Virus record (IMG/VR): IMGVR_UViG_3300034061_003277
Coordinates: 479 to 64,478 of that record
Source of the DNA: a virus
Taxonomy: Duplodnaviria; Heunggongvirae; Uroviricota; Caudoviricetes
Length of the DNA stretch: 64,000 bases
Strand: one strand, 5' to 3'
Shown here: in pieces, positions 1 to 59,070 of the stretch
Numbering within the stretch: the first letter of the stretch is position 1
How the letters are laid out: each line of letters opens with the position of its first letter
Program-made: the position numbers and the translations under genes
The notes under the pieces: generated by a model
What the model saw: the letters and a program-made list of their open reading frames with translations, nothing else
Databases searched by the model: none
Told to the model about the DNA's origin: nothing

Positions 1-38
1 TGGCAATTTGAAGTAGCTGAAAAATTATATTTAAATAA

Positions 39-848
39 ATGAAAGCGATTGTAATTGGAGGTGGTTCTATAGGTAAAAGACACTCAACAAACTTAAATAA
101 ATTTGGAGTTAAAACTCGTATAGTTGATATTGATGAGATAGACAATATAGATAATATATTAAGTGAAGGGTTTGATATGGGTTTAGTTTGCACTCCAAAC
201 ATAAATCATATAGAACATTGCTTAAAATTAGCTAATCATAATATACCTATATTCTGTGAAAAACCATTTTACACATCAAATGAAGGATTAGATGAACTAT
301 TAAAAATAGTAAAAGAAAAAAATCTAATCACAATGGTTGGTTGTAATCTAAGATTTACTCCTGAAGTGCAACAAATTGATCCTGAAAGTAAATATATTAA
401 TGTTTATTTTGGGTATGATCTTAAAAAATGGAGACCTATGACTGACCATTTAAAATCATATAGTGCCAACAAACATTTAGGAGGAGGAATATTATTAGAT
501 GCTATACATGAGTTAGACTATCTTTACTTTAAGTTTGGAGAAATAGAAGACATTTCTTATCTTCATAGAAAACTTACTAACATAACAAATGATACAGAAG
601 ATTTAACTACAGGTACTATTAAATTTAAAAATGGTACTGTAGCTGATTTTCATTTAAATTATCTATCTGAAGATTATTTAAGATATTATGATGTGTTGAA
701 AGATAATAGATTAAGAAGAACAGAATTTGTTTTAGATAATAGTATGTACATTAATGAAATATTTTATTTTGTAGATAATGTTGTGAATAAAACTCAATGT
801 ATGAATAATTTTGAAGAAGCAAGTAAGTTATTAAAACACTTAATATGA
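39..848 (+). CDS. Gfo/Idh/MocA-family NAD(P)-binding oxidoreductase (sugar-nucleotide pathway)
   Basis: N-terminal Rossmann motif IVIGGGSIGKRH; first gene of a coupled operon (ATGA overlap at 845) with a NeuB-like synthase. Confidence 0.55.
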   Translation: MKAIVIGGGSIGKRHSTNLNKFGVKTRIVDIDEIDNIDNILSEGFDMGLVCTPNINHIEHCLKLANHNIPIFCEKPFYTSNEGLDELLKIVKEKNLITMVGCNLRFTPEVQQIDPESKYINVYFGYDLKKWRPMTDHLKSYSANKHLGGGILLDAIHELDYLYFKFGEIEDISYLHRKLTNITNDTEDLTTGTIKFKNGTVADFHLNYLSEDYLRYYDVLKDNRLRRTEFVLDNSMYINEIFYFVDNVVNKTQCMNNFEEASKLLKHLI

Positions 849-1819
849 AAACATTTGTAATAGCAGAGGCAGGAGCTAATCATAATAAAAATTTTAATCA
901 AGCCCTAAAACTGATAGACGTAGCTAAAGAATCAGGAGCCCAAGCTGTTAAATTTCAAACATACTCATCAGAAACTCTTTATAGTAAAAATACTCCTAAT
1001 TTTGCTGGGTATAAAAATATAAATCAACTTATTAAAGATATTGAATTGCCTCGTGAGTGGCAAAAAGATCTAAAGCAATACTGTGATGAGATAGGTATTG
1101 AGTTTATGTCCACCCCATTTGATGAAAATGCAGTTGATGAGTTAGTTAACTTAGGAGTTAAACGATTAAAAATAGCTGGGTTTGAATCTACAGATTTTAG
1201 ATTTGTTGACATGGTAGCTTCATCTAAATTACCTTTAGTTATATCTTTAGGTATTGGATTTGAAATGAATTATTTAGGTAAAATATTTGACATAGCTAAC
1301 AAATATGGAAACCATTTAAGTTTTATGTATGCTAATAATGCTTACCCAACTCCAATTGAAGATGCTGGGGTAGGAATTGTTAGACAATTAGCCCAAGATA
1401 CAAGATACAGTTGGGGTTTATCTGATCATACTGAAAGTACTTTAACACCTGCTTTAGCAGTAGCTGCCGGAGCAACAATAATTGAAAAACATTTTACTTT
1501 AAGTAAACATTTACCTGGACCTGATCATCCATTTGCTTTAGAACCAAACGAATTAAAAGAGATGATTCAAAATATTATATTTGCTGAAAAATCTATTTCG
1601 AAACAAACATCAAATGGAATATCAGACTCAGAACAAGCATTCAAACAAGCAATGCGTTCGGTAGTAGCTAAAACAGATATTAAACCTGGAGAGATTTTAA
1701 CTATAGATAATATTACAACTAAAAGACCTTTTTTAGAAGGATGTACGCCCGCTAGTGAGTTTGAATCATTGTTAGGTATAGTCGCTACTAAAGAATATAA
1801 ATACGATGATTTTATATGA
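845..1819 (+). CDS. N-acetylneuraminate/pseudaminate/legionaminate synthase family (NeuB/PseI/LegI-like)
   Basis: Hallmark N-terminal IAEAGANHN motif, TIM-barrel-type length, C-terminal SAF-like tail; start overlaps upstream stop. Confidence 0.8.
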   Translation: MKTFVIAEAGANHNKNFNQALKLIDVAKESGAQAVKFQTYSSETLYSKNTPNFAGYKNINQLIKDIELPREWQKDLKQYCDEIGIEFMSTPFDENAVDELVNLGVKRLKIAGFESTDFRFVDMVASSKLPLVISLGIGFEMNYLGKIFDIANKYGNHLSFMYANNAYPTPIEDAGVGIVRQLAQDTRYSWGLSDHTESTLTPALAVAAGATIIEKHFTLSKHLPGPDHPFALEPNELKEMIQNIIFAEKSISKQTSNGISDSEQAFKQAMRSVVAKTDIKPGEILTIDNITTKRPFLEGCTPASEFESLLGIVATKEYKYDDFI

Positions 1820-2235
1820 TATTAAGAGAGGCAACATTTAATGATTGGAAAACTCTCCTTGATTGGAGAAATGATCCTTCCACTAGAGAAAACTCATTCA
1901 CTACAGAAGAAATATCAGAATCAACTCATAAACAATGGTTCACAGATAGTTTATCTAATGAAAAAAGAAAAATCTATATTCTAGAAACTAATTTTATTCC
2001 TGTAGGATCTATTAGATCAGATGTTTTAGATACAGATAAGTATATTCTATCTTGGAGTATTGCTCCAAACCAAAGAGGAAAAGGATATGGCACTAAAATA
2101 TTAGAAATTTATTTACAAGGTAAAAAAGGTGAGTTTGTAGCTGAGATTAAATCAGAGAATATAGCCTCTATTAAAATGGTTATGAATAATGGATTTGAAC
2201 AAGTTGATGAATTAAAATATATTAAAAAACAATAA
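1816..2235 (+). CDS. GNAT-family N-acetyltransferase (PseH-like)
   Basis: 139 aa, GNAT-like core (..QRGKGYGTKILE..), embedded in the nonulosonate operon. Confidence 0.5.
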   Translation: MILREATFNDWKTLLDWRNDPSTRENSFTTEEISESTHKQWFTDSLSNEKRKIYILETNFIPVGSIRSDVLDTDKYILSWSIAPNQRGKGYGTKILEIYLQGKKGEFVAEIKSENIASIKMVMNNGFEQVDELKYIKKQ

Positions 2236-2236
2236 C

Positions 2237-2422
2237 ATGACTGATTTAGAAATAATTGATGAAATTCAAAAAGTAAGAGGAAATAATAATGTAAACTGGA
2301 TGGATATATTACGTATAGCTTTTACTCATGCTCCTAAAGAAACAAGAGAAGTATTTAAACGTATTACAAATGATGATAATACTATAAATGAACTATCTAA
2401 AAAATTAGCTAATAACGGATAA
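2237..2422 (+). CDS. hypothetical small protein
   Basis: 61-aa ORF coupled into the operon. Confidence 0.4.
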   Translation: MTDLEIIDEIQKVRGNNNVNWMDILRIAFTHAPKETREVFKRITNDDNTINELSKKLANNG

Positions 2423-3285
2423 TGAGTTATATAAACCATAACTGGAAAGACATAGCTAAAGGTAATACAGCATTTTGTATTTTAGGAGGTCCATCTGTCA
2501 AACAGGTTGATGATATTCAAACTATCATTAATAATAACTTTACTATTACTGTTAATCATAATATAAAAGACTATCCTAACTGTGATTTATATATAACTGC
2601 TGATAATTCTATTGCTAGAGAGTATTTTGAAGACAAAGAATTCTGTCTATTTAAATTTACAGGAGGTAAATTATTAGAAAACCAATCAGGATTTACATAT
2701 GATAAAAATCCAATATGGATTCAAGGTAAAAAAGAAATACTACAACAAAATCCTAATTTAATTAAGATAATAGCTTGCAATGAATTTCCAATTTACAATT
2801 ATTCATTCACAACAGGTCAATTATCAAAACATCATGGAGAAGAATATTGCAAAACTACTCCTCATACTCACCTATGCATTGAATATAGAAATGAACAAGG
2901 TGAGTCTTGGCCTATATTAAGCCCAACAATACCTGAAAGTTTAACTAAATATGGTACTAACCCATATGAGTTAATATCAGGAGGAAATGTATCAGGAATA
3001 TTATTTCAATTGCTATGGTTTATGGGATTTGATAAAGTGATAGTAGTAGGATATGGTGACAATGGAACTTCAAACGGATATGAAATGAATACAATATTTG
3101 AATGGAGTAATGAAGAAATACATGCTATGACAACTCACCATACAAAATGGGGAGACAGATTAAAATCACTCCACGGCTCAGAAATTTGTAGAGAGTATTG
3201 TGATTTTAAACAAGCGTCATATGATGAGTTAGAAACTACTCCTGATAAGAAAAATGAATTAATTTTAAAACTGCTTACATTATGA
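2422..3285 (+). CDS. putative nonulosonic-acid (sialyl-type) transferase, Cst-II/GT42- or DUF115/Maf-like
   Basis: N-terminal 'CILGGPSVKQVD' resembles the Cst-II 'IIAGNGPSLKEIDY' start. 'GFDKVIVVGYGDNGTSNGY' resembles Cst-II 'GYKEIYLSGIDFYQNGSSY'. Comparison is to a remembered family sequence, not a search. Confidence 0.4.
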   Translation: MSYINHNWKDIAKGNTAFCILGGPSVKQVDDIQTIINNNFTITVNHNIKDYPNCDLYITADNSIAREYFEDKEFCLFKFTGGKLLENQSGFTYDKNPIWIQGKKEILQQNPNLIKIIACNEFPIYNYSFTTGQLSKHHGEEYCKTTPHTHLCIEYRNEQGESWPILSPTIPESLTKYGTNPYELISGGNVSGILFQLLWFMGFDKVIVVGYGDNGTSNGYEMNTIFEWSNEEIHAMTTHHTKWGDRLKSLHGSEICREYCDFKQASYDELETTPDKKNELILKLLTL

Positions 3286-4142
3286 AAAAAATTCATTTAA
3301 CAATTCATATATTCCCTAAGGAAATAGATGACTATGAATTTACTATAAATCAATTAAAAGTAGCCTCTAAATTTATAACTAACTTACAGATAGATGCTAA
3401 TGTTATTTTAAATTTAAATGATAAAATAATTGATTGGGATAAATCATCTTTGCCTAAAGAGTATTTTGTAGAAAGATTTAAACATATAAATACAAAACTT
3501 GACTGGGTAACTAATTTAGAAGAAGAAATAACATACAAGCAAGAGTATCATGGTTATCTAGAAAAAAGAATAGCCAATACTAAGCTAGAAGGATATGATG
3601 CATTTTGGTGGCAAGATGTAGATCTAATTTTAGATGATCTTATACTATATGGATTAGAATCTACTTTAGACACTATTACTGAGCCAGATTATATAATAAG
3701 TCCTCAAATATATAAATTTTGGGACACATCATGGGATGTAATATCAGCTGTTCCTAGTAGTGATATTGATGTAGACACATTTGATAGTTTTAATACTAAA
3801 CTACTCCAATATGATAGAAGTATAGGGTTAATACCTAATAAAAACATTAAATTTGCAGGAGGTTGGTTTACTATTTTAAGTGACTCGTTTGTTAAACAAA
3901 TTCCATTTCCTGGTAATACAAAAGGATATGGTAGAGAAGATACATTAGCTTTAGAAATAGGTAAAAAGGTTAATGTAACTCAATATGTGATGAAAGGAAT
4001 AATAGTTCAAGAAAATAGAAAATATTTAAGTAATGCTTTGTATAATAAATTTGTTCATTATAATATAGATTATCTAAAACCTATTAATGAACAATCTTTA
4101 CAAACATTTTATAATTTAATAAACAACATATGGAAAAAATAA
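3282..4142 (+). CDS. hypothetical protein (operon member)
   Basis: 286-aa ORF, start overlaps upstream stop. Confidence 0.5.
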   Translation: MKKIHLTIHIFPKEIDDYEFTINQLKVASKFITNLQIDANVILNLNDKIIDWDKSSLPKEYFVERFKHINTKLDWVTNLEEEITYKQEYHGYLEKRIANTKLEGYDAFWWQDVDLILDDLILYGLESTLDTITEPDYIISPQIYKFWDTSWDVISAVPSSDIDVDTFDSFNTKLLQYDRSIGLIPNKNIKFAGGWFTILSDSFVKQIPFPGNTKGYGREDTLALEIGKKVNVTQYVMKGIIVQENRKYLSNALYNKFVHYNIDYLKPINEQSLQTFYNLINNIWKK

Positions 4143-5314
4143 CATTTTGCATTCCTAGCAAATCAAACCTAAGATACCTTAAAACATGTATCCCATCAAT
4201 TAGAAAAAATTCTTATCGTGATGATCATGATATAATTATTTTTGTTGACTCTGATGAAGATGGAACAGTTAAATGGTTAGAACAAGTTAAAGACAAATAT
4301 AACTTAAGCTATTTTGTTAATCCTAATTTAGGTGAGAGTTTGTTTGGTATAGGTAAAGCATATGATTTTTGTATAGAGCACTCTAAAACGGATATTTTTA
4401 TAATATTCCATGCTGATATGATGTTAGGTAAAAACGCCGATATAAACGCTTATAACCACTTAAAATCTAAGACAGTAGTATGTTCTACAAGAGTAGAACC
4501 ACCTATACATCCTAATAATGGTGAGAAAATAATATCAGATTTTGGGATGTGGCCTGAAGAATTTAAGGAAGAAGAATTTAATTCATATGTTGAGTCACAA
4601 TTAGACGAAACTAAAACTACAAATGGTATTTTTGCCCCATGGATGATGTATAAGAAAGAATACCTTGAAATAGGAGGTCATGACCCAATCTTAAAATCAT
4701 GCCGTGAGGACTCAGACATATTCAATAGAATGAAATTAGCTGAATTTGAGTTTATTCAACCTTGGAACTCATTAGTATATCATTTAACAGGTAGAGGAGC
4801 AGGCAGTTTTGATGGTGATACTGAGCGTCATTTAGCTTGGCAGAAAGAAATGAATAACTCAACTAAAGAATTTATTCGCAAGTGGGGTTCAAATGTTAGA
4901 CATACTGACTTAATGGAACCTATTGTGCCGCCAAAGTATAACATTGCGTTTGTAGTTGACAACTGTAATTTACAATTACTTGAAATTCTAGAGCCAATGT
5001 GTGATAGAATATATGTAGATGAAGTATTCCAAATTGGTCGATCACAAGATTATATAGAAGCATTTCAAGAATCTACATCATTTGATCTACAGAAGAGAGT
5101 ATTAACTAAACAATATAATGACCCTGAGGGTGAAAATGATATTATTGTACATTTTGATGCTAATAAATTCACTCAACAATCATTTTATTTCCTACACCAA
5201 ATACCAGATATAATTAAAGGTAGTGGTGAGGTTGGATTATTTGAGTTAGATATATTTACAATCAATATTATAAACCTTCAAGAGTACCAAAACCAACTTA
5301 TAAAAATATCTTAA
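4130..5314 (+). CDS. GT-A-fold (GT2-like) glycosyltransferase
   Basis: N-terminal 'ITFCIPSKSNLRYLKTCIPSI...IIIFVDSDEDGT' with a DxD-like DSDED. Confidence 0.45.
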   Translation: MEKITFCIPSKSNLRYLKTCIPSIRKNSYRDDHDIIIFVDSDEDGTVKWLEQVKDKYNLSYFVNPNLGESLFGIGKAYDFCIEHSKTDIFIIFHADMMLGKNADINAYNHLKSKTVVCSTRVEPPIHPNNGEKIISDFGMWPEEFKEEEFNSYVESQLDETKTTNGIFAPWMMYKKEYLEIGGHDPILKSCREDSDIFNRMKLAEFEFIQPWNSLVYHLTGRGAGSFDGDTERHLAWQKEMNNSTKEFIRKWGSNVRHTDLMEPIVPPKYNIAFVVDNCNLQLLEILEPMCDRIYVDEVFQIGRSQDYIEAFQESTSFDLQKRVLTKQYNDPEGENDIIVHFDANKFTQQSFYFLHQIPDIIKGSGEVGLFELDIFTINIINLQEYQNQLIKIS

Positions 5315-5526
5315 TAAGCTTGGATTTTACTATATACTTATTATATTTACAATAAAAAATGCTAACATATTACTTTTATAGCAAACAAGATCCCAATAAG
5401 GAAATTATTGATAAGATTCAAGCTAAAGATTTAGAGACAGCTGTTCATTATTTCTTAGGGAGAAAAAATCTTACAAGAGAAAAATTCTTCGATATATATG
5501 GGGTTGGTATTAAAAATCTAAAATAA

Positions 5527-5919
5527 ATGGATTTGAAAAACTTTGGACAAAAACTAAAATTTGAGGAAAGTAATAAAAGCAAAGAGAAAAAAATAAAAGA
5601 ACTATTCATGAGTATTGTAGATACTTTAGAATATAAGTTCCATAGCTCAACAGCTTTATTTACTGAATTCAATATAGAAATCTTCCGATATGAAGAAGAT
5701 TACTATAAAATAATTGAGAATTTACTTTTATTACATTTTGGATTATGGAAAACTGAATTAATCCTTTGGTATGTATATGAAGGTAAAGACGAAAATGGTG
5801 TACCTAACAGTATAGATATTGAATTACCAACAGGTGAAACCCAAACAATGAAATTCTCTACGACTAGTAGTCTATGGAATTTTATGACAAAATTAGACAA
5901 ACAATTAAACAAACAATGA
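5527..5919 (+). CDS. hypothetical protein
   Basis: 130-aa ORF. Confidence 0.4.
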   Translation: MDLKNFGQKLKFEESNKSKEKKIKELFMSIVDTLEYKFHSSTALFTEFNIEIFRYEEDYYKIIENLLLLHFGLWKTELILWYVYEGKDENGVPNSIDIELPTGETQTMKFSTTSSLWNFMTKLDKQLNKQ

Positions 5920-6257
5920 TTATGAGAAAATGCTCAGTGTGTGGGGAGGAAATTAATCCAAAACGAATAGAGATTTTACCTAATACTCAAACATGTGTTC
6001 AACACTCTACAGTAGAGAAAAAAGCAGCTGTAACTGTACAGATGGGAGAAGGAGATCATACGTGGACTGAAACATTCGCAGTCGATAGAGAAGAGTATCG
6101 CAAATTAGAAGAAATGGAGAATAATTTTAGAAAAACAACTGACCCTTCTTCTAAAATAGATATAGTTGATTTTGATGAGGAAGATCAAGAGGAAGAGGAA
6201 ATGGCTGATACTAAACATAACCTCAATTTAGATGATCTTATTGATATTATAGAATAA
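5874..6257 (+). CDS. DksA/TraR-like C4 zinc-finger protein with acidic tail
   Basis: CSVCGEEINPKRIEILPNTQTCVQHS zinc-finger-like segment; C-terminal D/E-rich tail. Confidence 0.45.
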   Translation: MEFYDKIRQTIKQTMIMRKCSVCGEEINPKRIEILPNTQTCVQHSTVEKKAAVTVQMGEGDHTWTETFAVDREEYRKLEEMENNFRKTTDPSSKIDIVDFDEEDQEEEEMADTKHNLNLDDLIDIIE

Positions 6258-7076: not shown

Positions 7077-7436
7077 ATGGCTACAGAATTTACCCTTAAT
7101 AATAGTGAGGAGTTCCAGAAGATGATAAATGATAAGGACTTCAGGATAGCCCAAGCAATTGTAACAACTATTTTAAACAACATAACTACTAAAAAGAAAC
7201 ATATTCATGTATTATCAGTTAGCTGTTTGGAAGAAAATGCTACATATGACATTACTTTAGAAAAAAAACACTTTGTTGATACATTAGAAGAAAATTTAAA
7301 GTATTACATTGAACATGAATTATATGAAGATTGTACTAAAATAGTACAAGCTATAAATAAGTTAAAAGAAACACCAACACCAACACCTAAAACCACACCT
7401 AAGAAAAATGGCAAAAGCAAAACAATCAGCGACTAG
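7077..7436 (+). CDS. hypothetical protein with TP-rich basic C-terminal tail
   Basis: C-terminus TPTPTPKTTPKKNGKSK. Confidence 0.5.
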   Translation: MATEFTLNNSEEFQKMINDKDFRIAQAIVTTILNNITTKKKHIHVLSVSCLEENATYDITLEKKHFVDTLEENLKYYIEHELYEDCTKIVQAINKLKETPTPTPKTTPKKNGKSKTISD

Positions 7437-8141: not shown

Positions 8142-8669
8142 ATGGAGGAGTATAGTCATTGGTTCCATTGGAGTCATTATTTTAGAGCTAATTACGAATG
8201 GTTACATAAACCTGAAAAGTTCTTATATGATATTGAACAACAATTGCCCTCATACATTACTCAGATAGTAAATATAGGATGCGCTTCAGGTAGAGATTTT
8301 ATACCTTTTAATGGTAAATATGATTTAATAGGCATTGATATAGCTCCTTATGATCAGATAAATTGGGTTGATGATTTTAAAAACCTAACTTATTATACAT
8401 GCTATATAAAAGACTTTAGTGGTTTAGATGTATTACAAGATTTATCAACATCATTCATCTATACTCAAAATACAATGATGTATGAAACTGAAGAAGGACA
8501 AAGAGATTTTTATGAAAGTATATTAGAACGAGGATGTAAGAATATGCTATTTCATGAACATGAAGGTTTTGATTATAATACTGAGGGATTTAAATTGGAC
8601 CCTAATGATTTTGAGATTACTCAATTTAGACCCCCAGTAAATGCTTACTTAAAATTAACACATTTATGA
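8142..8669 (+). CDS. possible class-I SAM-dependent methyltransferase-like protein
   Basis: 'IVNIGCASGRDF...LIGIDIAP' resembles SAM motif I/II; weak. Confidence 0.3.
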   Translation: MEEYSHWFHWSHYFRANYEWLHKPEKFLYDIEQQLPSYITQIVNIGCASGRDFIPFNGKYDLIGIDIAPYDQINWVDDFKNLTYYTCYIKDFSGLDVLQDLSTSFIYTQNTMMYETEEGQRDFYESILERGCKNMLFHEHEGFDYNTEGFKLDPNDFEITQFRPPVNAYLKLTHL

Positions 8670-10936: not shown

Positions 10937-11761
10937 ATGTTACTAAAAAACGGATCAAAAGGAGAAGAAGTTAAACAACTTCAAGCAAAATTAGGATTAA
11001 ACGCAGACGGTAATTTTGGTCCTATGACTGAAACTAAAGTCAAAGAATGGCAAGCAGCAAATGGATTAGCAGCTGACGGTATTGTAGGAGACGGTACATG
11101 GGGTAAAATGTTTGGAGCAGCAGCTCCAACCCCTGTTGCAACTGTAGCTATCCCGCCAAGTTCATTCAAACTAGATGCTTTAAAGGGACATATCCCTGAT
11201 GCTGTAATAGCCCAAATCCCAGATACAGCAGCTAAATTCAACATTACAAATCCATTACGTCTAGCTCATTTCTTAGCACAATGTGGACATGAATCAGGTG
11301 GATTCAAATTCATTAATGAGAATTTAAACTACTCAGCTGATGGTTTAAAGAAGATATTCGGAAAATACTTCCCAGGCGATCTAGCTGCTTCATATGCTCG
11401 CAACCCAGAAAAAATTGCTTCTCGTGTTTATGGAGCAAGAATGGGTAATGGAGATGAATCAACAGGTGAAGGATATAAATATCGTGGACGTGGTTATATC
11501 CAATTAACTGGTAAATCTAACTACACCAATTTTGCTAAATTTATAGGAGAAGATACAGTCGCCAACCCCGATCTAGTAGCAACCAAATACCCATTAGCAT
11601 CAGCAGCATTTTTCTTCGATTCAAATAAATTATGGTCAATATGTGATAAAGGAGCTGATGAAGCAACTGTCACAGCAGTCACTAAACGAGTAAACGGTGG
11701 TACAATTGGTTTACCTGATCGTATTAAGCATTTTAACGAGTACTATAACTTATTGAAATGA
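10937..11761 (+). CDS. endolysin: peptidoglycan-binding domain + GH19/lysozyme-like catalytic domain
   Basis: Two PG_binding_1-like repeats (LQAKLGLNADGNFGPMTETKVKEWQ; LAADGIVGDGTWGKM); GH19-type motif LAHFLAQCGHESGGF. Confidence 0.8.
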   Translation: MLLKNGSKGEEVKQLQAKLGLNADGNFGPMTETKVKEWQAANGLAADGIVGDGTWGKMFGAAAPTPVATVAIPPSSFKLDALKGHIPDAVIAQIPDTAAKFNITNPLRLAHFLAQCGHESGGFKFINENLNYSADGLKKIFGKYFPGDLAASYARNPEKIASRVYGARMGNGDESTGEGYKYRGRGYIQLTGKSNYTNFAKFIGEDTVANPDLVATKYPLASAAFFFDSNKLWSICDKGADEATVTAVTKRVNGGTIGLPDRIKHFNEYYNLLK

Positions 11762-12593: not shown

Positions 12594-13673
12594 ATGGGTT
12601 ATTTAAAAAACATAGTCACTTATTTCTACAAAATATTATTCAGCTCAGAGATAAATGAAGCTGATAAATTTATTGATAAAGCTGCCATCATCTCTATAAC
12701 TGATGAGCGTGGTAAGATAATCTATGTTAATGATAAGTTTGAGAAGGTTTCTGGGTGGACATTAGATGAGGTTAGAGGTAAAGATCATTCTATAGTCAAT
12801 TCCGGGACGCAACCAGATGGCTATTGGGGTAAGATGTATGAGACTGTGTTGAAGGGTGAAGTGTGGAATGATATTGTATGTAATGTAACTAAAGAGGGTA
12901 AACATTATTGGGTAGACACTTATATTAGAGCCCGTTTTAATAAATGTGGAAAACTAAAAGGATTCTCATCTATTAGACAGGACGTCACTGCGCTTATGGA
13001 GCAGTCTGTTGAGTTAAATAGAAAGAATACATATCTAGAACACGCTGCTAAAATTCTTAGGCACGACATGCACTCAGGTATAAACACTTACATACCAAGA
13101 GGTATTAGTTCATTAGAAAGAAGACTCAAACCAGAAGATATTCAAAAGTTAAAAATAGAAGCTCCTCTTAAGATGATTAAAGAGGGGCTAACTCATGCTC
13201 AAAAAGTTTATAAAGGTGTTTATGAGTTTACCAATTTGGTTAAAAAAGATGTTGTGTTAGATAAAGAGTTATATGATTTAAAACAAATATTAAACTCATA
13301 TCTAGCATCAACTTCATATAAAAGTCAAGTAATAATCAAAGATTTATCTACTGTAGAAGTCAATGAAGCATTATTTTGTACAGCTGTAGATAACCTAATT
13401 CGCAATGGGTTAAAATACAACGACTCAGATACTAAAATAGTAACTATATTTATGGAGGATGATTCTACTCTTGCTATTCAAGATAATGGTAGAGGAATAA
13501 CTCAAGAAGATTTTAATTATTTATCTAGACCTTACACTCGTAAAGAAGGACAAAAAGAAGCAGGTACTGGTTTAGGTTTAAATATATGTGTTGCAATTTT
13601 AAAAGAGCATGGTTTTGATATTACATGTGAAAAAAATGAGGTTGGAACCAAAATGAAAATTAAAATAAAATGA
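12594..13673 (+). CDS. cytoplasmic sensor histidine kinase (PAS + HisKA_3-like H-box + HATPase_c)
   Basis: PAS-like N-terminus (ITDERGKIIYVNDKFEKVSGWTLDEVRGKDHSIV...HYWVDTYI); H-box-like LRHDMHSG; ATPase boxes NGLKYNDSD, DNGRGI, GTGLGLNIC. Confidence 0.7.
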   Translation: MGYLKNIVTYFYKILFSSEINEADKFIDKAAIISITDERGKIIYVNDKFEKVSGWTLDEVRGKDHSIVNSGTQPDGYWGKMYETVLKGEVWNDIVCNVTKEGKHYWVDTYIRARFNKCGKLKGFSSIRQDVTALMEQSVELNRKNTYLEHAAKILRHDMHSGINTYIPRGISSLERRLKPEDIQKLKIEAPLKMIKEGLTHAQKVYKGVYEFTNLVKKDVVLDKELYDLKQILNSYLASTSYKSQVIIKDLSTVEVNEALFCTAVDNLIRNGLKYNDSDTKIVTIFMEDDSTLAIQDNGRGITQEDFNYLSRPYTRKEGQKEAGTGLGLNICVAILKEHGFDITCEKNEVGTKMKIKIK

Positions 13674-14302
13674 GAACACTATTACTATTAAGTTTCTTAT
13701 TAATATCATCACTAGGATTTAGCCAAACTAAATACCCTATCCAAACTATATTCAGAGGTGACTCAGTTGTTATTCTAACTATTAAACAATCTTTTGGTAT
13801 TAATAAAGCAATTGAAACCCAAAAAAGAATTATCCGAGACCAGAATAAAAAAATACTCGCTCTAAATAAAACAATTGATAGTTTAAATAGGATAAATAAT
13901 AGAGTTAATACTGTTATTGATAGTATACAATATATTGCAGACACAACATATAAGTGGGCTGACGAATTTAATATGGTTATCAGAGAACGAGCTATAGGTC
14001 CATGTTTACTTTATACCATACCTCCTTATAACAGTGTATTCTTTTTAGATTTAAGTCGTTATAGAATGTATAGTACAGAATACGGTGAAAAAATTGAATT
14101 AGAATTAATGTCAGATAAACAATATGCCGAGTTTAAAAGACTACAAGATTTATATTTTGATAGATACTACCCTACTTTAGATTATTATAAAGAGATTGGG
14201 TTTAAAGATTTTAATACTGAGATTGAATTATACGAGAAGGCAATTTGGAAGACTAAAAATATAATGAAGTTAATGATAAAACAAGAAGAAAAGAAAAAAT
14301 GA
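13670..14302 (+). CDS. secreted protein encoded between the two kinases
   Basis: Signal peptide MRTLLLLSFLLISSLGFSQ; start overlaps kinase stop. Confidence 0.5.
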   Translation: MRTLLLLSFLLISSLGFSQTKYPIQTIFRGDSVVILTIKQSFGINKAIETQKRIIRDQNKKILALNKTIDSLNRINNRVNTVIDSIQYIADTTYKWADEFNMVIRERAIGPCLLYTIPPYNSVFFLDLSRYRMYSTEYGEKIELELMSDKQYAEFKRLQDLYFDRYYPTLDYYKEIGFKDFNTEIELYEKAIWKTKNIMKLMIKQEEKKK

Positions 14303-15606
14303 AAAAAATAATATCATTACTTATAGTCTTACTTGTATCTATAAATTTATACTCCCAAGAGATAAATTATAAAGACACTCTAGTAGATAACATAGAAACA
14401 ACTTGGATTGATAGCGATACAGCGACATTGGCCGCTATGGGTATTCAAGAAATTGTTACTACTTGGATTGAACCAGAACCAGAGCCAGAACCTGAACCTG
14501 TTGACATGACACAGTTATCAGAAACTGATTTAGTCAACATTGCTCAGGATGTACAATTCCTATCAGAATTGCCTAAGTCATATACTGATTTACCTAAAGA
14601 GGATTTAAAGAATGTTTTAGTTCAAATTGATAATAAACTTAATAAATTAACGGCTGAGCGAGATTCATTATTAGCACAAGCAACTAGAAATGATGAATTA
14701 ATTAAATCAAAAGAAAATACAATTAACGCCTTAGGAAAAGAAAAGAACATCATTGGTTTAACTTTAGAAACTGGTGATTTAATAGTTGAGAAAACAGATT
14801 TAGAAAAGCAAAGAGAAACATTAAAAAAATATCTCTATTGGGCTGTTGGTATAGTAATATTATTTAGTTTAATACTTGCTGTTGTATTACAAAGAAAGAA
14901 AATACAAGTACAGGACGTAGAAATTGAAGAACAACTTAATGACATATCTAAAAAGAATAGTTACTTAGAACACGCTGCGAGAATTATCCGCCACGACATG
15001 CACTCAGGTATAAACACATACATGCCTAGAGGTATTAGTTCACTTGAAAAACGATTAACACCTGAAGACATTCAAAAGTTAAAAATAGAAGGTGCTTTAA
15101 AAATGGTTAAAGAAGGTTTAAACCATACACAGCGAGTATATAAAAGTGTTTATGAATTTACTAACTTAGTGAAATCAGATGTTGTATTGAATAAAACCAA
15201 AGTTAATCTAAAAGATTTGCTTCAAAACTACATTACCCCAAACTCATATAGCTCACAGGTTGAAATTAGTGACTTAGAAGAATTAGAAGTAAATGAAATT
15301 TTATTTTGCAATGCAGTTGAAAATTTAATTAAAAATGGATTATCATATAATGATAGCCAAGAAAAGAAAGTCAAAATATATATTGACAACGACAGTTTAG
15401 TAATCGAAGATAATGGTCGAGGATTTACACAAAAACAATTTGATAAACATTTAACAAAATACTCAAAGAAAACAAATGTTACAGGTGATGAAAATGGACT
15501 CGGTTTGAATATATGCGTTGCTATATTAGAGGAGCATGGTTTTAAATTAAGTTGTGAAGGAAACAATGTAGGAACTAAAATGAAAATTAAAATTAAAAAT
15601 GACTGA
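14299..15606 (+). CDS. membrane-anchored sensor histidine kinase (paralog of 12594-13673 core)
   Basis: Signal peptide, TTWIDSD/TTWIEPE repeat, EPEPEPEPEP linker, coiled coil, TM (WAVGIVILFSLILAVVL). Kinase core ~85% nt-identical over H-box (ttagaacacgctgc...cacgacatgcactcaggtataaaca); DNGRGF, GLGLNICVAILEEHGF. Confidence 0.7.
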   Translation: MKKIISLLIVLLVSINLYSQEINYKDTLVDNIETTWIDSDTATLAAMGIQEIVTTWIEPEPEPEPEPVDMTQLSETDLVNIAQDVQFLSELPKSYTDLPKEDLKNVLVQIDNKLNKLTAERDSLLAQATRNDELIKSKENTINALGKEKNIIGLTLETGDLIVEKTDLEKQRETLKKYLYWAVGIVILFSLILAVVLQRKKIQVQDVEIEEQLNDISKKNSYLEHAARIIRHDMHSGINTYMPRGISSLEKRLTPEDIQKLKIEGALKMVKEGLNHTQRVYKSVYEFTNLVKSDVVLNKTKVNLKDLLQNYITPNSYSSQVEISDLEELEVNEILFCNAVENLIKNGLSYNDSQEKKVKIYIDNDSLVIEDNGRGFTQKQFDKHLTKYSKKTNVTGDENGLGLNICVAILEEHGFKLSCEGNNVGTKMKIKIKND

Positions 15607-17304: not shown

Positions 17305-17390
17305 GGCCGGGTGGTGAAACAGGTAGACACGCAGGACTTAAAATCCTGTTGCCCAAAAGAGCAGTGTGGGTTCGATTCCCACCCCGGCTA
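17305..17390 (+). tRNA. tRNA-Leu (anticodon TAA), type II
   Basis: Manual fold: acceptor GGCCGGG/CCCGGCT, D-arm GTG-aaacaggtaga-CAC, anticodon arm CAGGA-cuUAAaa-TCCTG, long variable arm TGC-ccaaaaga-GCA, T-arm GTGGG-TTCGATT-CCCAC. Confidence 0.85.
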
Positions 17391-17503
17391 CTAAAGTACA
17401 TGCTACGCTACCCATAAGAACAGCGTCCCAGAGTATGGCTTTTGCTAAAGAGGATAAAATGCGTAGTAGCCTCAGGAGTCTGCAGCTCCACTACGCTCCA
17501 TTA

Positions 17504-17577
17504 GCGCCCTTAGCTCATTCGGTTAGAGCAACTGACTCATAATCAGTAGGTGCCTGGTTCGATCCCAGGAGGGCGCA
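17504..17577 (+). tRNA. tRNA-Met (anticodon CAT; elongator-Met or Ile2 type)
   Basis: Acceptor GCGCCCT/AGGGCGC, D-arm GCTC/GAGC, anticodon arm ACTGA-cuCAUaa-TCAGT, T-arm CCTGG-TTCGATC-CCAGG. Confidence 0.85.
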
Positions 17578-17598
17578 CTAAAAAGTTTTTTAAATATA

Positions 17599-20873: not shown

Positions 20874-22037
20874 ATGGAAAACAATAATTCAGTGTGCTAT
20901 GTAGCACGTATAAACGAAATCAACCCAATCCCAGGAGCAGATAATATCGAACAAGGTGTTATCGGAGGATGGAATTGTATTATCAAGAAAGGAGAATACA
21001 AAGTAGATGACTTAGTTGTAGTAGCAACCACAGACGCAGTTATTCCTGTAGAGCTATCAGATGCAATGAACGTAACCAATTACTTACGTAAGGGTCAACG
21101 TGTGCGTACTGTTAAGTTAAGAGGTGTTTACAGTGAGTGTTTGATTATACCTTTAAGATACGCTCGTCAATCTGCTAAATACACTAAATTGGAGTGGAAT
21201 GAAGGTAAGGATGTAATGGAATTGTTAGGTATCTTCAAGTATGAACCACCAGTACGCCAAGTACAAGTGGCAGGGGGTCGTAAGATTAAATATAAAGACA
21301 ACCCTAATTTCCAGGTTTATTATAAATTCCCCAACATAAAAAATGTGAATGGAATGTTTAATGAAGAAGATTATGTACAAATTACTCGTAAGATACATGG
21401 TACAAATGCTCGTTATGGTATTGTTAAGAAACATAAGTTATCATTTTGGGATAAGTGTAAAAAATTCTTACGATTAGCTGATGAGTGGATTGAGTATGAA
21501 TATGTTTATGGTTCACATAACGTTGAGAAAGGTTCTGATACACAAGGTTTCTACTCAACTGATGTTTGGAGAGAGGTAGCTGATAAGTATCAAATCAAAG
21601 ATAAGTTGTGGGCGTTTGTTAAGAATCACACACCAACTGAAGTTGGAACTGGAGTAATAGTATATGGTGAGATATACGGACCTGGTATTCAAAAGAACTA
21701 TGACTACGGATTGAAGGAGTTAGAGTTTGCTGGTTTTGATGTTGTATGGAATGGTAAATATTTTTGTGGTGAATTAACTCATCTTACAATGATTGGTAAG
21801 CATAATGACTTTATCGACGGTGTTGATTTGCCTCACGTACCTATTTTATATGTTGGACTTTGGTCTCAAGAGATTCAAGATAAGTTCACATTCAACAACT
21901 TTATTGAAGGAACTAAAGTACCACATGAAGGTATTGTAATCAAACACACAAGTGGACAAAGAGAAAAAGTAGCTAAAGTAATTAACCCAGACTATCTCAT
22001 CTATGGAGAGAAACATGATGTAGGAGATTCACACTAA
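20874..22037 (+). CDS. ATP-dependent RNA ligase (KxHGxN nucleotidyltransferase in C-terminal half, DraRnl/Rnl5-like arrangement)
   Basis: Motif I RKIHGTNARYG at ~residue 175; motif IV HEGIVIKH; motif V KVAKVINPDY; ~170-aa N-terminal extra domain. Confidence 0.6.
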   Translation: MENNNSVCYVARINEINPIPGADNIEQGVIGGWNCIIKKGEYKVDDLVVVATTDAVIPVELSDAMNVTNYLRKGQRVRTVKLRGVYSECLIIPLRYARQSAKYTKLEWNEGKDVMELLGIFKYEPPVRQVQVAGGRKIKYKDNPNFQVYYKFPNIKNVNGMFNEEDYVQITRKIHGTNARYGIVKKHKLSFWDKCKKFLRLADEWIEYEYVYGSHNVEKGSDTQGFYSTDVWREVADKYQIKDKLWAFVKNHTPTEVGTGVIVYGEIYGPGIQKNYDYGLKELEFAGFDVVWNGKYFCGELTHLTMIGKHNDFIDGVDLPHVPILYVGLWSQEIQDKFTFNNFIEGTKVPHEGIVIKHTSGQREKVAKVINPDYLIYGEKHDVGDSH

Positions 22038-25972: not shown

Positions 25973-27073
25973 ATGAAATTAAATACATTATACAAAAGAG
26001 CAGTAAACGGTAAAATAAATGAATGGACCGTTGAAACATTAGATAATTGTTTTAGAACAATATCAGGTTATACAGATGGAGTTAAAACCACTTCTGAATG
26101 GACATGCTGTGCTGGTAAGAACATTGGTAAGAAAAATGAGACAACACCTGAACAACAAGCATTAGCTGAAGCTAAAGCGATGTGGACTAAAAAATTAGAG
26201 TTAGGTAGTTATGAATCAATAGATGATATTGATACACCTAAGTTTTTTAATCCAATGTTAGCTCATAAGTTTGAAGACCATAAAGATAAAATTGAATACC
26301 CAGTTTATAGTCAACCTAAATTAGATGGTATTAGATGTATTGTTAGAGCAGATGGTATGTGGAGTAGAAATGGTAAGAAAATTATCTCAGCACCTCACAT
26401 TTATGAAGCTATGAAACCATTGTTTGAATCTAATCCTGATTTAATATTTGATGGTGAGTTATATGCTGATAAATTTGCGAATGACTTTAATGCTATTTGT
26501 TCATTAGTTAAGAAAACTAAACCAACAAATGATGATTTAAAGAAAAGTAAAGAATCAATTCAATACCACATTTATGATTTGCCTAGTTGTAATGGTACAT
26601 TCATTAAACGATTATCTGAATTAACTAATTTAGAGTCTAATTTACCTTCATGTTGTGAGGTAGTAGCTACAAATTTTGTTAAAAACGAAAGTGAAATTGA
26701 TGAATGGTATAGTGATTATGTTAATCAAGGTTATGAAGGACAAATGATTCGTTTAGATAAAGAATATGAATCAAAACGTTCTAAATCATTACTTAAACAT
26801 AAGTCGTTTATTGATGAAGAATATACTATCTTAGATGTAGTTGAAGGTGAAGGTAATAAAACAGGAATGGTAGGTTCATTTGTATTTAAGAGTAAGACAG
26901 GACATATATTTAATTCGTCACCTAAATTTAACTGGGAGGAATGTAAGGCGATGTGGAACAATAAAAATGAATTAATTGGCAAATCAGCTACAGTTAAGTA
27001 CTTTAACTTAACACCAGATGGTGTTCCAAGATTTCCATATGTAATTAAAATTGATAGAGAGAGTTACGAATGA
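25973..27073 (+). CDS. ATP-dependent DNA ligase
   Basis: Motif I KLDGIR, motif III IFDGELY, motif IV EGQMIR, motif V LLKHK; C-terminal OB-like region. Confidence 0.75.
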   Translation: MKLNTLYKRAVNGKINEWTVETLDNCFRTISGYTDGVKTTSEWTCCAGKNIGKKNETTPEQQALAEAKAMWTKKLELGSYESIDDIDTPKFFNPMLAHKFEDHKDKIEYPVYSQPKLDGIRCIVRADGMWSRNGKKIISAPHIYEAMKPLFESNPDLIFDGELYADKFANDFNAICSLVKKTKPTNDDLKKSKESIQYHIYDLPSCNGTFIKRLSELTNLESNLPSCCEVVATNFVKNESEIDEWYSDYVNQGYEGQMIRLDKEYESKRSKSLLKHKSFIDEEYTILDVVEGEGNKTGMVGSFVFKSKTGHIFNSSPKFNWEECKAMWNNKNELIGKSATVKYFNLTPDGVPRFPYVIKIDRESYE

Positions 27074-29377: not shown

Positions 29378-29447
29378 AGACAGGTAGTTTAATTGGTAAA
29401 ATGTTCTCATACTGAGAAGAATACAGGTTCGAATCCTGTCCTGACTA
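29378..29447 (+). ncRNA. tRNA-like element C (acceptor/D/T canonical, anticodon arm replaced by tight hairpin)
   Basis: AGACAGG/CCTGACT acceptor (1 mismatch), D-loop aattggtaaa, T-arm ACAGG-TTCGAAT-CCTGT; central TTCTCA-tac-TGAGAA hairpin. Confidence 0.4.
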
Positions 29448-29549
29448 CAAAAACACATTAACTCAAGTACCCATACTGAGGACGATGGGCTAAGTAAGAT
29501 ACAATTCCGTCATGCAGGGAGTAGAATGCTTGAGAATGTGTTTAAATAT

Positions 29550-54486: not shown

Positions 54487-54488
54487 TA

Positions 54489-56375: not shown

Positions 56376-56393
56376 CCATATATTTATAATCGT

Positions 56394-56750: not shown

Positions 56751-56751
56751 A

Positions 56752-57156: not shown

Positions 57157-57157
57157 T

Positions 57158-59038: not shown

Positions 59039-59070
59039 AAGATAACCAAACTTTATATTTATAATAAAAA

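What the first reader, a model, noticed from the sequence alone, without database searches (positions are those of the whole stretch)
39..5314. Phage-borne nonulosonic-acid (sialic/pseudaminic/legionaminic-like) synthesis and transfer operon
Seven genes are chained by overlapping stop/start codons (ATGA at 845, 1816, 2422, 3282, 4130). They are a Gfo/Idh/MocA oxidoreductase, a NeuB/PseI-type synthase (IAEAGANHN motif), a PseH-like GNAT, a Cst-II/Maf-like candidate transferase and a GT2 glycosyltransferase. The pathway is incomplete in the window; the cytidylyltransferase/aminotransferase would lie upstream of position 1. Nonulosonate glycosylation encoded by a lytic phage is rare. It could decorate virion proteins (masking or adhesion) or remodel the host surface for superinfection exclusion.
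Basis: partly seen in the sequence, partly recalled or inferred. Interest (0 to 1): 0.75.

Follow-up and report, generated by a model that had tools for sequence, protein, structure and literature searches.

The report
Phage sialic-acid-like sugar synthesis and transfer island
A large marine phage related to Flavobacterium phage immuto carries its own full gene set for making an activated nine-carbon sialic-acid-like sugar and attaching it to something, most likely its own particle proteins; deposited phage genomes almost never carry such a set.

Summary
Window 39-5314 has seven tightly packed + strand genes:
- a Gfo/Idh/MocA oxidoreductase
- a NeuB-family nonulosonate (NulO) synthase
- a PseH-like GNAT
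- a 61-aa accessory module
- a 287-aa protein with a Maf/sialyltransferase fold
- a GT2 enzyme

These genes are the 3' half of a ~15-kb island. The gene table of the source contig and a 96-99% identical IMG/VR contig (L009) show the upstream half: two GT-B and two GT2 transferases, a TagF-like 381-aa protein, a PseB-type dehydratase, a class-III (HemL-like, not PseC-type) aminotransferase and a cytidylyltransferase. The last codons of the cytidylyltransferase gene are window 1-42.

The island sits at a conserved position in an abundant lineage related to Flavobacterium phage immuto. The outer glycosyltransferases are conserved, while the central sugar cassette is swapped between relatives.

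None of the 212 + strand ORFs of at least 90 aa in the islands of 15 related loci has a membrane segment.

Best reading (about 0.5): cytoplasmic synthesis of a non-canonical pseudaminic-acid-like CMP-sugar, then transfer by a minimal Maf-type enzyme onto a glycan on phage virion proteins. Host-surface remodelling is the main rival. The sugar's identity and the acceptor are inferred, not shown.

The parts
1..42 (+). 3' end (last 13 codons plus stop) of the CTP_transf_3 cytidylyltransferase gene. This is the predicted CMP-nonulosonate synthetase. It overlaps the next gene by ATGA.
   Evidence: The translation WQFEVAEKLYLNK* equals the C-terminus of L009:8509-9198. That protein hits PF02348 at 1.1e-13 and PseF TIGR03584 at 2.2e-9, 37 bits, below the 205.7 cutoff. 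The source-contig gene table shows CTP_transf_3 immediately upstream.
39..848 (+). Short (269 aa) Gfo/Idh/MocA NAD-dependent oxidoreductase. Predicted to act on the sugar or nonulosonate (oxidation at a secondary hydroxyl). It always co-occurs with the class-III aminotransferase.
   Evidence: PF01408 4e-13, PF22725 5e-9. The GGGSIGKRH, EKP and DAIHELD motifs are visible in the translation. Best solved relatives are the sialic-acid oxidoreductases 6z3b/6z3c and YjhC 6o15 at 2.5e-10 (identified through PMC7535918). Co-occurrence with the aminotransferase in 8 loci and in divergent contigs.
845..1819 (+). NeuB-family nonulosonic acid synthase (NeuB plus SAF domains). It condenses PEP with a 6-carbon (amino)sugar. 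Its Neu/Pse/Leg specificity cannot be assigned.
   Evidence: PF03102 7.5e-64 over 1-238/241; SAF 9.5e-7. TIGR03569 NeuB 271 bits (cutoff 400) and TIGR03586 PseI 236 bits (cutoff 340), so both are below their cutoffs. PDB: PseI 8h2c 161 bits, SpsE 1vli 158, NeuB 1xuu 137.
1816..2235 (+). GNAT N-acetyltransferase, PseH-like. Predicted to N-acetylate the 4-amino sugar intermediate.
   Evidence: PF13302 2e-11; TIGR03585 PseH 2.9e-12, 46.9 bits, below the 93.1 cutoff. phrog_1249 acetyltransferase 1e-13.
2237..2422 (+). 61-aa helical accessory module of the N-acyltransferase, a stand-alone gene in this phage.
   Evidence: No family hit. Homologous segments are fused to the C-terminus of the GNAT in L007:10969-11610 and to a formyltransferase (PF00551, 3e-15) in L001:8312-9043, L006:10963-11691 and L002:6814-7563.
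2422..3285 (+). Minimal Maf/DUF115-type (sialyltransferase-fold) enzyme. Predicted CMP-nonulosonate transferase.
3282..4142 (+). GT-A fold glycosyltransferase with a DxD motif.
4130..5314 (+). GT2 glycosyltransferase with a ~150-aa C-terminal extension. This is the conserved right-hand boundary of the island in all relatives.
   Evidence: PF00535 1.1e-10, PF13641 5.8e-6. 61-74% identical in most IMG/VR relatives. 47% identical to immuto gp169 'glycosyltransferase WcaA'.
8142..8669 (+). Paralogue (40% identity) of the 188-aa cassette protein that lies between the aminotransferase and the cytidylyltransferase. Possible methyltransferase-like tailoring enzyme; association with the island is tentative.
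   Evidence: BLASTP 2e-41 to L009:7941-8507. That protein has only a faint Pse-associated methylase hit, TIGR03587 at 0.078. No Pfam hit.

Best explanation
Window 1-5314 is the 3' half of a ~15-kb phage-encoded glycosylation island of about 18 genes.

Shown:
- The island encodes soluble enzymes for a complete but non-canonical CMP-nonulosonate pathway.
- It also encodes seven predicted glycosyltransferases: 2 GT-B, 4 GT-A/GT2 and 1 Maf-type.

Inferred pathway:
1. Host UDP-GlcNAc is converted by a PseB-type inverting 4,6-dehydratase to the 4-keto-6-deoxy sugar.
2. The keto sugar is aminated by a class-III aminotransferase standing in for PseC.
3. The amine is N-acetylated by the PseH-like GNAT (1816-2235) with its 61-aa helper (2237-2422).
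4. The sugar is released from UDP. The enzyme is not identified; the TagF-like 381-aa protein is the only candidate.
5. It is condensed with PEP by NeuB (845-1819).
6. It is activated by the cytidylyltransferase (its gene ends at window 42).
7. It is tailored by the Gfo/Idh/MocA oxidoreductase (39-848). This would be oxidation at C8 or C4, as ElaA and NanOx do, possibly feeding a further amination or epimerisation.

Inferred transfer: the minimal Maf-type enzyme (2422-3285) transfers the CMP-sugar in the cytoplasm. The acceptor is a glycan built by the conserved outer glycosyltransferases and by the GT-A enzymes at 3282-4142 and 4130-5314.

Inferred target: phage virion proteins. This would give particles a variable sugar coat whose terminal sugar differs between related phages through cassette swapping.
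For: Gene identities.

PseB type rather than PglF type: PDB FlaA1 2gn4 scores 205 bits against about 100 for PglF/WlaL, and the STDKA...YGASK motif is kept. TIGR PseB scores 261 bits against 53 for LegB.

Upstream half of the island.

Transferase folds: Maf-type and GT-A.

Tight operon: five overlapping junctions and no terminator-like site in 1-5314.

Conserved linkage: the order CTP_transf_3, Gfo, Maf-like, NeuB holds in relatives down to 36-56% identity.

Same position in the genome, with conserved outer glycosyltransferases:
- 15 IMG/VR contigs.
- The cultured phage immuto: GT1a 57%, GT1b 56%, GT2a 61%, GT2c 47% identity.
- Microcystis phage Mel-JY01.
The central cassette differs between them. 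This pattern is typical of exposed, diversifying glycans.

Soluble enzymes only:
- None of the 21 proteins scanned (the island plus four downstream genes) has a transmembrane segment.
- None of 212 + strand ORFs of at least 90 aa in the islands of 15 related loci has one either.
- So no flippase, polymerase, ligase or initiating phosphoglycosyltransferase is encoded.

Cytoplasmic precedent: characterised Maf enzymes glycosylate a protein (flagellin) directly from CMP-sugar in the cytoplasm (established knowledge; 5mu5 entry).

DNA as target is unlikely: DNA of immuto, which has the syntenic glycosyltransferase core, shows only fdPreQ1 as a modified nucleoside (PMC10516641).

Virion precedent: virion glycosylation by phage glycosyltransferases is documented in mycobacteriophages (Freeman 2023, as cited in PMC12619734). 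GT1b has weak hits to actinophage glycosyltransferases.
Against: - No acceptor has been identified, and no virion glycan data exist for this lineage.
- The island lies among replication and nuclease genes, not next to structural genes.
- Soluble GT2/GT4 enzymes can also work on host undecaprenyl-linked intermediates. Lack of membrane proteins therefore does not exclude use of host export machinery.
- No UDP-sugar hydrolase (PseG or LegG) is recognisable.
- The NeuB, GNAT, dehydratase and cytidylyltransferase all score below the NCBIfam equivalog cutoffs. The exact sugar is therefore unknown.
- The roles assigned to the class-III aminotransferase and the Gfo enzyme are inferences from co-occurrence and from distant homologues.
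- The phage Maf-like protein lacks the N- and C-terminal domains of flagellin Maf proteins (287 aa against 632 aa).
Confidence: 0.5

Rival explanations
1. Host-surface remodelling. The phage enzymes make the CMP-nonulosonate and extend host lipid-linked (undecaprenyl-PP) O-antigen, capsule or general O-glycosylation intermediates. Host flippase and ligase then export these. The infected cell surface changes, giving superinfection exclusion or keeping progeny from sticking to debris.
For: - Bacteroidota decorate surface proteins and LPS with Pse/Leg-type sugars. Examples are Tannerella (PMC5378307, listed) and the Tenacibaculum maritimum O-polysaccharide with an 8-amino nonulosonate (PMC3210612).
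- GT2/GT4 enzymes that act on lipid-linked acceptors are usually soluble or peripheral, consistent.
- Prophage-encoded EpaAB already remodel capsule pseudaminic acid in Acinetobacter (PMC12053666).
Against: - The phage encodes seven transferases but no initiating transferase, flippase, polymerase or ligase in any of 15 loci.
- The closest cultured relative is a Caudoviricetes myophage, and no integrase or lysogeny gene was seen among the window or immuto-locus genes examined. This leaves a short time for surface turnover.
- The dedicated transferase is Maf-type, and characterised members of that type act on cytoplasmic protein.
- The conserved glycosyltransferase core is kept across phages of very different hosts, Flavobacterium and Microcystis. 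That is hard to reconcile with dependence on host-specific lipid-linked acceptors.
Confidence: 0.28
2. DNA hypermodification. The glycosyltransferases attach sugars (including the nonulosonate) to modified bases in phage DNA to evade restriction.
For: - The island always sits next to a PD-(D/E)XK nuclease and near replication genes.
- Phage glycosyltransferases that hypermodify DNA with diverse glycans are known (Pyle 2024, as cited in PMC12619734).
Against: - Nucleoside analysis of immuto DNA found dA, dC and dT plus fdPreQ1 only (PMC10516641).
- No hydroxymethylase or base-modifying enzyme lies in the island.
- Maf/sialyltransferase-fold enzymes are not known to act on DNA.
Confidence: 0.04
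3. Metabolic supply only. The cassette boosts or redirects the host's own nonulosonate pool during infection. The unnamed genes would not be transferases for this sugar.
For: Many phage auxiliary metabolic genes supplement host pathways. The pathway enzymes are individually ordinary families.
Against: - The Maf-fold gene is embedded between Gfo and NeuB in several relatives and co-inherited with them.
- Six further glycosyltransferases flank the cassette.
- The whole island is conserved in position.
Confidence: 0.05

Closest known systems
Flagellin pseudaminic/legionaminic acid O-glycosylation systems of Campylobacter, Helicobacter, Aeromonas and Magnetospirillum (PseBCHGIF or Leg enzymes plus a Maf transferase)
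   Same: - PseB-type dehydratase, PseH-like GNAT, NeuB-family synthase and CTP_transf_3 activator.
- A Maf/DUF115-fold transferase encoded in the same cluster.
- All enzymes soluble and cytoplasmic.
   Different: - A class-III (HemL-like) aminotransferase replaces DegT-type PseC.
- No PseG is recognisable.
- An extra Gfo/Idh/MocA oxidoreductase is present.
- Every enzyme scores below the NCBIfam equivalog cutoffs.
- The Maf-like protein is only the 287-aa catalytic core, without the flagellin-binding domains.
- The system is encoded by a phage whose closest cultured relative infects Flavobacterium. No flagellin gene was noticed among the ORFs examined, though this was not searched systematically.
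Acinetobacter ElaABC (and Vibrio nab) CMP-legionaminic acid 8-epimerisation module; prophage EpaAB
   Same: - A CTP_transf_3 gene sits directly next to a Gfo/Idh/MocA oxidoreductase inside a nonulosonate cluster.
- ElaA oxidises C8 of the CMP-sugar (PMC13656337).
- EpaAB show that phages can carry nonulosonate-tailoring genes (PMC12053666).
   Different: - No SDR partner (ElaC or EpaB type) is present here. The constant partner is a class-III aminotransferase instead.
- Similarity of the phage Gfo to ElaA was not tested. Its best solved relatives are the NanOx/YjhC enzymes.
- EpaAB are two genes in temperate prophages that act on host-made sugar, not a whole pathway.
[quoted passage not shown]
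   Same: - Same genomic position: PD-(D/E)XK nuclease on the left, DksA-like and HNH genes on the right.
- Same conserved glycosyltransferases: GT1a, GT1b, the 152-aa protein, GT2a and GT2c at 45-61% identity.
   Different: - The immuto central cassette encodes WecE-type aminotransferases, a methyltransferase, a mannosyltransferase, a PglB-like protein and an epimerase. It has no NeuB, cytidylyltransferase, Gfo or Maf-like gene.
- Mel-JY01 has almost no cassette.
Virus-encoded virion glycosylation (mycobacteriophage capsid and tail-tube glycosylation; giant-virus and chlorovirus glycan clusters)
   Same: - Lytic viruses that carry their own soluble glycosyltransferases, and in giant viruses also their own sugar-nucleotide pathways, to coat particles.
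- DUF115 proteins occur in uncultured Caudovirales and in the giant virus ChoanoV1.
   Different: - I found no report of a complete nonulosonate pathway with a Maf-type transferase in a lytic phage. The literature searches found none, but the library is incomplete.
- Virion attachment is not demonstrated for this lineage.

Membership tests
NeuB family nonulosonate synthases (PF03102) | Full-length NeuB TIM-barrel domain above the Pfam gathering score, plus a C-terminal SAF domain | tested here: met
   PF03102 215.9 bits (cutoff 22.1) over profile 1-238/241. SAF 29.7 bits (cutoff 21).
Pseudaminic acid synthase PseI / N-acetylneuraminate synthase NeuB (NCBIfam equivalogs) | Score above the equivalog cutoff of TIGR03586 (340) or TIGR03569 (400) | tested here: not met
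   236 and 271 bits respectively. PDB scores are nearly equal for PseI, SpsE and NeuB. Specificity is unassigned.
Canonical pseudaminic acid pathway (PseB, C, H, G, I, F) | PseB: inverting UDP-GlcNAc 4,6-dehydratase | tested here: inconclusive
   Best NCBIfam hit is PseB at 261 bits, below the 408 cutoff. Best PDB hit is H. pylori FlaA1 at 205 bits, against about 100 for PglF. The STDKA/YGASK motifs are kept. The gene lies upstream of the window (L009:5661-6671).
Canonical pseudaminic acid pathway (PseB, C, H, G, I, F) | PseC: DegT/DnrJ/EryC1-family aminotransferase | tested here: not met
   The only aminotransferase in this cassette type is class III (PF00202 6.8e-51; HemL-like PRK06209 321 bits). 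DegT-type enzymes occur only in the alternative cassette of relatives (L001:6392-7363, PF01041 3.9e-37).
Canonical pseudaminic acid pathway (PseB, C, H, G, I, F) | PseH GNAT and PseF cytidylyltransferase at equivalog level | tested here: not met
   PseH 46.9 bits against the 93.1 cutoff. PseF 37.3 bits against the 205.7 cutoff. Only the broader families (GNAT, CTP_transf_3) are met.
Canonical pseudaminic acid pathway (PseB, C, H, G, I, F) | PseG UDP-sugar hydrolase | tested here: not met
   No PseG hit in any island protein. The 381-aa candidate has only weak TIGR04396 (6e-6) and Glyphos_transf (1e-4, in 6 of 12 members) matches and no PDB sequence match.
Maf / DUF115 (PF01973 MptE-like) nonulosonate transferases | MptE-like/DUF115 catalytic domain | tested here: inconclusive
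Maf / DUF115 (PF01973 MptE-like) nonulosonate transferases | Flanking N- and C-terminal domains of flagellin Maf proteins, and a flagellin substrate | tested here: not met
   The protein is 287 aa against 632 for 5mu5, and only 201 residues align. No flagellin gene was noticed in the window ORFs examined, but this was not searched systematically.
GT42 (Cst-I/Cst-II) sialyltransferases | Sequence membership (PF06002) and fold | tested here: not met
GT2 (PF00535) glycosyltransferases | GT-A domain above the Pfam gathering score | tested here: met
Virion glycosylation systems of phages | Glycan demonstrated on a structural protein | not testable with these tools
   Needs glycoproteomics of purified particles.

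The most novel reading that the evidence does not exclude
An abundant lineage of marine flavobacterial myophages coats its virion proteins with a phage-made nonulosonic acid not yet described biosynthetically. An example would be a Pse-type sugar carrying an extra amino group, installed by the Gfo/class-III aminotransferase pair, like the 8-amino nonulosonate of Tenacibaculum maritimum. A minimal Maf-type transferase attaches it. Related phages switch the terminal sugar by cassette exchange, giving 'serotypes' of virus particles.
Probability: 0.25. Interest if true: 0.85.

Novelty: new variant of a known kind. Interest (0 to 1): 0.7.

Why it matters
If correct, phages in the sea do not just borrow host glycans. 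They synthesise their own sialic-acid-like sugars and diversify them through swappable cassettes, much as bacteria diversify O-antigens.

That would bear on several questions:
- How virions avoid sticking to non-host surfaces, to decoys or to grazers.
- How host range and particle decay are tuned.
- How nonulosonate pathway genes spread between phages and bacteria.

The cassette also offers compact soluble enzymes of practical interest to glycoengineering:
- a 287-aa Maf core,
- a class-III aminotransferase apparently standing in for PseC,
- a short Gfo oxidoreductase.

A cultured relative (immuto) carries the conserved glycosyltransferase core. This makes the virion-glycosylation question directly testable.

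Tried and rejected
- Megablast of window 1-6000 against 50,697 phage records gave no match.
- tblastn of the Maf-like protein against phages gave no match.
- Profile searches of the 287-aa, 286-aa and 381-aa families against PDB sequences gave nothing usable.
- hhalign of the Maf-like profile against candidate GxGPS proteins of the alternative cassettes (L001:9713-10438, L014:14086-14865) gave probability below 3%, which is inconclusive.
- PADLOC models hit no island protein.
- I tried to reach cellular homologues and their contexts. The listed best 120 of 594 homologues of the Gfo protein were all close relatives (56% identity or more) from unnamed metagenome contigs, evidently the same phage lineage. 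The single genome-contig scan with the aminotransferase returned only two 27%-identity generic aminotransferases. The bacterial source of the cassette is therefore unknown.
- The cytidylyltransferase has no PDB sequence match.
- The promoter and terminator scan was uninformative in this AT-rich DNA.
- Literature searches for phage-encoded complete nonulosonate pathways or phage Maf proteins found none. The library is incomplete, so this is not proof of absence.
- I considered contamination or misassembly with host DNA and rejected it. The same synteny with phage flanks occurs in 15 IMG/VR contigs and in two cultured phages, and GC content matches the neighbouring genes.

Full report
**Observation**

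The junctions, read directly:
- ATGA 4-nt overlaps at 845, 1816 and 3282.
- A TAATG 1-nt overlap at 2422.
- A 13-nt overlap at 4130, where the sequence is ATGG, not ATGA.
- A 1-nt gap at 2235/2237.

No terminator-like site lies inside 1-5314. The packing is that of one operon.

**Gene identities in the window**

| Window coordinates | Assignment | Key evidence |
|---|---|---|
| 39-848 | Gfo/Idh/MocA oxidoreductase | PF01408 4e-13. Nucleotide-binding, EKP and DAIHELD motifs intact. |
| 845-1819 | NeuB-family synthase | PF03102 7.5e-64 plus SAF. IAEAGANHN at residue 6. |
| 1816-2235 | GNAT | Best NCBIfam match PseH, 46.9 bits, cutoff 93.1. |
| 2237-2422 | Accessory module of the N-acyltransferase | See below. 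|
| 2422-3285 | Maf-type transferase | See below. |
| 3282-4142 | GT-A glycosyltransferase | See below. |
| 4130-5314 | GT2 | PF00535 1.1e-10. |

- **Gfo.** Its best solved relatives are the sialic-acid oxidoreductases 6z3b/6z3c and E. coli YjhC at 2.5e-10.
- **NeuB.** It scores below both equivalog cutoffs: NeuB 271 of 400 and PseI 236 of 340. It is about equally distant from solved PseI, SpsE and NeuB. The family is certain; the sugar specificity is not.
- **2237-2422 (61 aa).** It has no family hit. Its homologues are fused to the C-terminus of the GNAT in L007. They are fused to a formyltransferase (PF00551) in L001, L002 and L006. It is therefore an accessory module of the N-acyltransferase.
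- **2422-3285 (287 aa).** It has no Pfam, NCBIfam or PHROG hit.
  - A profile of the family finds only 55 cluster representatives among 1.84 billion.
  - Of its weak matches, the 10 scanned with Pfam all carry PF01973 (MptE-like/DUF115) above threshold. This is a sequence bridge to the Maf superfamily.
  - G22-G23-P24-S25 and H239 are invariant.

**What lies upstream**

An exact look-up of the first protein found the 165,370-bp source contig. Its gene table (no DNA was available) shows, upstream of the window:
- a PD-(D/E)XK nuclease
- two GT1-type genes
- a 152-aa gene
- two GT2 genes
- a 381-aa gene
- a Polysacc_synt_2 dehydratase
- an Aminotran_3 gene
- a 196-aa gene
- a CTP_transf_3 gene that abuts the Gfo gene

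A 96-99% identical IMG/VR contig (L009) supplies the DNA for the same genes.

- **The dehydratase is PseB-type.** TIGR03589 gives 261 bits. The best PDB match is H. pylori FlaA1 at 205 bits, against about 100 for PglF. The STDKA...YGASK motif is kept.
- **The aminotransferase is class III, HemL-like.** PRK06209 gives 321 bits. Solved relatives include sugar C-6' aminotransferases. It is not DegT/PseC type.
- **The cytidylyltransferase is only distantly PseF-like,** at 37 bits. Window 1-42 encodes its last 13 codons.
- **The 381-aa protein** has weak TIGR04396 and TagF-like (PF04464) matches only.

**Phage context and variation**

The window is phage DNA. It has an endolysin, RNA and DNA ligases and a baseplate wedge gene, three tRNAs, and nearly all ORFs on one strand.

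The closest cultured relative is Flavobacterium phage vB_FspM_immuto (160 kb). The baseplate protein is 45% identical and GT1b is 56% identical.

Immuto has the same island at the same place:
- PD-(D/E)XK nuclease on the left.
- GT, GT, a 152-aa protein and GT2 on that side.
- A WcaA-type GT2 bounding the island on the right, followed by DksA-like and HNH genes outside it.

Identities to the window phage are 45-61%. Its central cassette, however, encodes WecE-type aminotransferases, a methyltransferase, a mannosyltransferase and an epimerase, with no NeuB. Microcystis phage Mel-JY01 has a minimal version.

Among 15 IMG/VR relatives, two nonulosonate cassette types occur:
- The window's type: PseB-like, class-III aminotransferase, cytidylyltransferase, Gfo, NeuB, GNAT and Maf-like.
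- A second type: a DegT aminotransferase, a formyltransferase, one or two extra NeuB paralogues and FkbM/PhyH tailoring enzymes.

The order class-III aminotransferase, ~198-aa gene, CTP_transf_3, Gfo, Maf-like, NeuB persists in contigs whose proteins are only 36-56% identical.

The lineage is abundant. There are more than 120 clusters (90% identity) of the Gfo protein and 91 of the Maf-like protein, from JGI, ENA, Logan and Tara data. Among 50,697 deposited phage records, NeuB finds only three distant hits.

**Mechanism**

Shown: the families, the folds, the operon structure, the conserved linkage and the absence of membrane proteins.
- None of the 21 proteins scanned (the island plus four downstream genes) has a 19-residue window with Kyte-Doolittle mean of 1.8 or more. 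A nearby membrane ORF scores 2.48.
- None of 212 + strand ORFs of at least 90 aa in the islands of 15 related loci does either.

Inferred: a Pse-like route from UDP-GlcNAc.
1. A PseB-type dehydratase.
2. Amination by the class-III enzyme, the only aminotransferase in this cassette.
3. Acetylation by the GNAT with its 61-aa helper.
4. An unidentified UDP-release step.
5. NeuB condensation with PEP.
6. CMP activation.

The Gfo enzyme most likely oxidises a secondary hydroxyl of the (CMP-)nonulosonate.
- ElaA does this at C8 of CMP-legionaminic acid (PMC13656337).
- NanOx-type enzymes do it at C4 of sialic acid (PMC7535918, listed).
- Gfo strictly co-occurs with the class-III aminotransferase.
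- That raises the possibility of an oxidation-transamination pair adding a further amino group.
- A 5,7,8-triamino nonulosonate is known from the marine flavobacterium Tenacibaculum (Flexibacter) maritimum (PMC3210612).
- This is a hypothesis; the alternative is plain redox tailoring.

The Maf-type enzyme is the obvious CMP-sugar transferase. The GT-A and GT-B enzymes would build the underlying glycan. The conserved outer enzymes would make a common core, and the cassette would supply the variable cap.

**Target**

I favour phage virion proteins, at about 0.5.
- All enzymes are soluble, and no export or ligation machinery is encoded in any variant.
- Characterised Maf enzymes glycosylate cytoplasmic protein.
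- The glycosyltransferase core is conserved across phages of unrelated hosts.
- A conserved core with a swappable cap is what one expects of an exposed, diversifying surface.
- Phage virion glycosylation has precedent (Freeman 2023, via PMC12619734).

Remodelling of host lipid-linked glycans, at about 0.28, is not excluded. Soluble glycosyltransferases can act on undecaprenyl-linked acceptors, and Bacteroidota use Pse/Leg sugars on their surfaces. DNA glycosylation is unlikely, because immuto DNA shows only fdPreQ1 (PMC10516641).

**Comparison and novelty**

The system works like a flagellin-type Pse/Maf glycosylation system, but it is not a canonical member.
- PseC and PseG are not met.
- All equivalog cutoffs are missed.
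- The Maf protein is a bare catalytic core.

Phage-borne nonulosonate tailoring genes (EpaAB, PMC12053666) and DUF115 proteins in uncultured phages and giant viruses exist. I found no description of a complete pathway plus transferase in a lytic phage. I rate it a new variant of a known kind.

**Limits**
- The upstream half rests on a near-identical relative and a gene table, not on the window itself.
- The sugar's identity, the roles of Gfo, the class-III aminotransferase and the 381-aa protein, and the acceptor are all inferences.
- The bacterial origin of the cassette could not be traced.

Noticed in passing
window 12594-13673 and 14299-15606: Two phage-encoded sensor-histidine-kinase-like proteins. 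Both have a HATPase_c domain (3e-15 and 1.8e-12) and the first also has a PAS domain. Both also hit phrog_857. Signal-sensing kinases are unusual cargo for a phage.
   Followed up: partly
window 8142-8669: A 175-aa ORF that is a 40%-identical paralogue (2e-41) of the 188-aa cassette gene lying between the aminotransferase and the cytidylyltransferase (L009:7941-8507). It carries a GCxxGRD motif. The cassette copy has a faint hit to the Pse-associated methylase family.
   Followed up: partly
L014 10001-14114; L001 4659-5416; L006 7207-8037: Relatives with the alternative cassette carry two or three NeuB-family genes. L014 also has two cytidylyltransferases. The second NeuB is split into two ORFs in L001. 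Formyltransferase, FkbM methyltransferase and PhyH dioxygenase genes are present too. This suggests more than one nonulosonate, or heavy tailoring.
   Followed up: partly
L020 5565-5816: A divergent relative of the cassette (Maf-like protein 36% identical) has a PP-binding (acyl carrier) gene right after NeuB. This hints at an unusual N-acyl group on the sugar.
   Followed up: no
window 17305-17391, 17504-17578, 29378-29448: Three tRNA genes: Leu-TAA, Met-CAT and Val-TAC.
   Followed up: no
window ~54000-64000: GC skew turns negative from about 54 kb, although the large ORFs there are still on the + strand. Unexplained.
   Followed up: no
window 7077-7436: A 119-aa ORF ends in a Thr/Pro-rich tail (TPTPTPKTTPKK) that looks like an O-glycosylation-type linker. 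No evidence links it to the island.
   Followed up: no
window 10937-11761, 20874-22037, 25973-27073: Endolysin (phrog_181, 3.7e-68), RNA ligase (phrog_968, 2.8e-61) and ATP-dependent DNA ligase (phrog_114, 1.1e-84). These confirm the phage nature of the window.
   Followed up: yes
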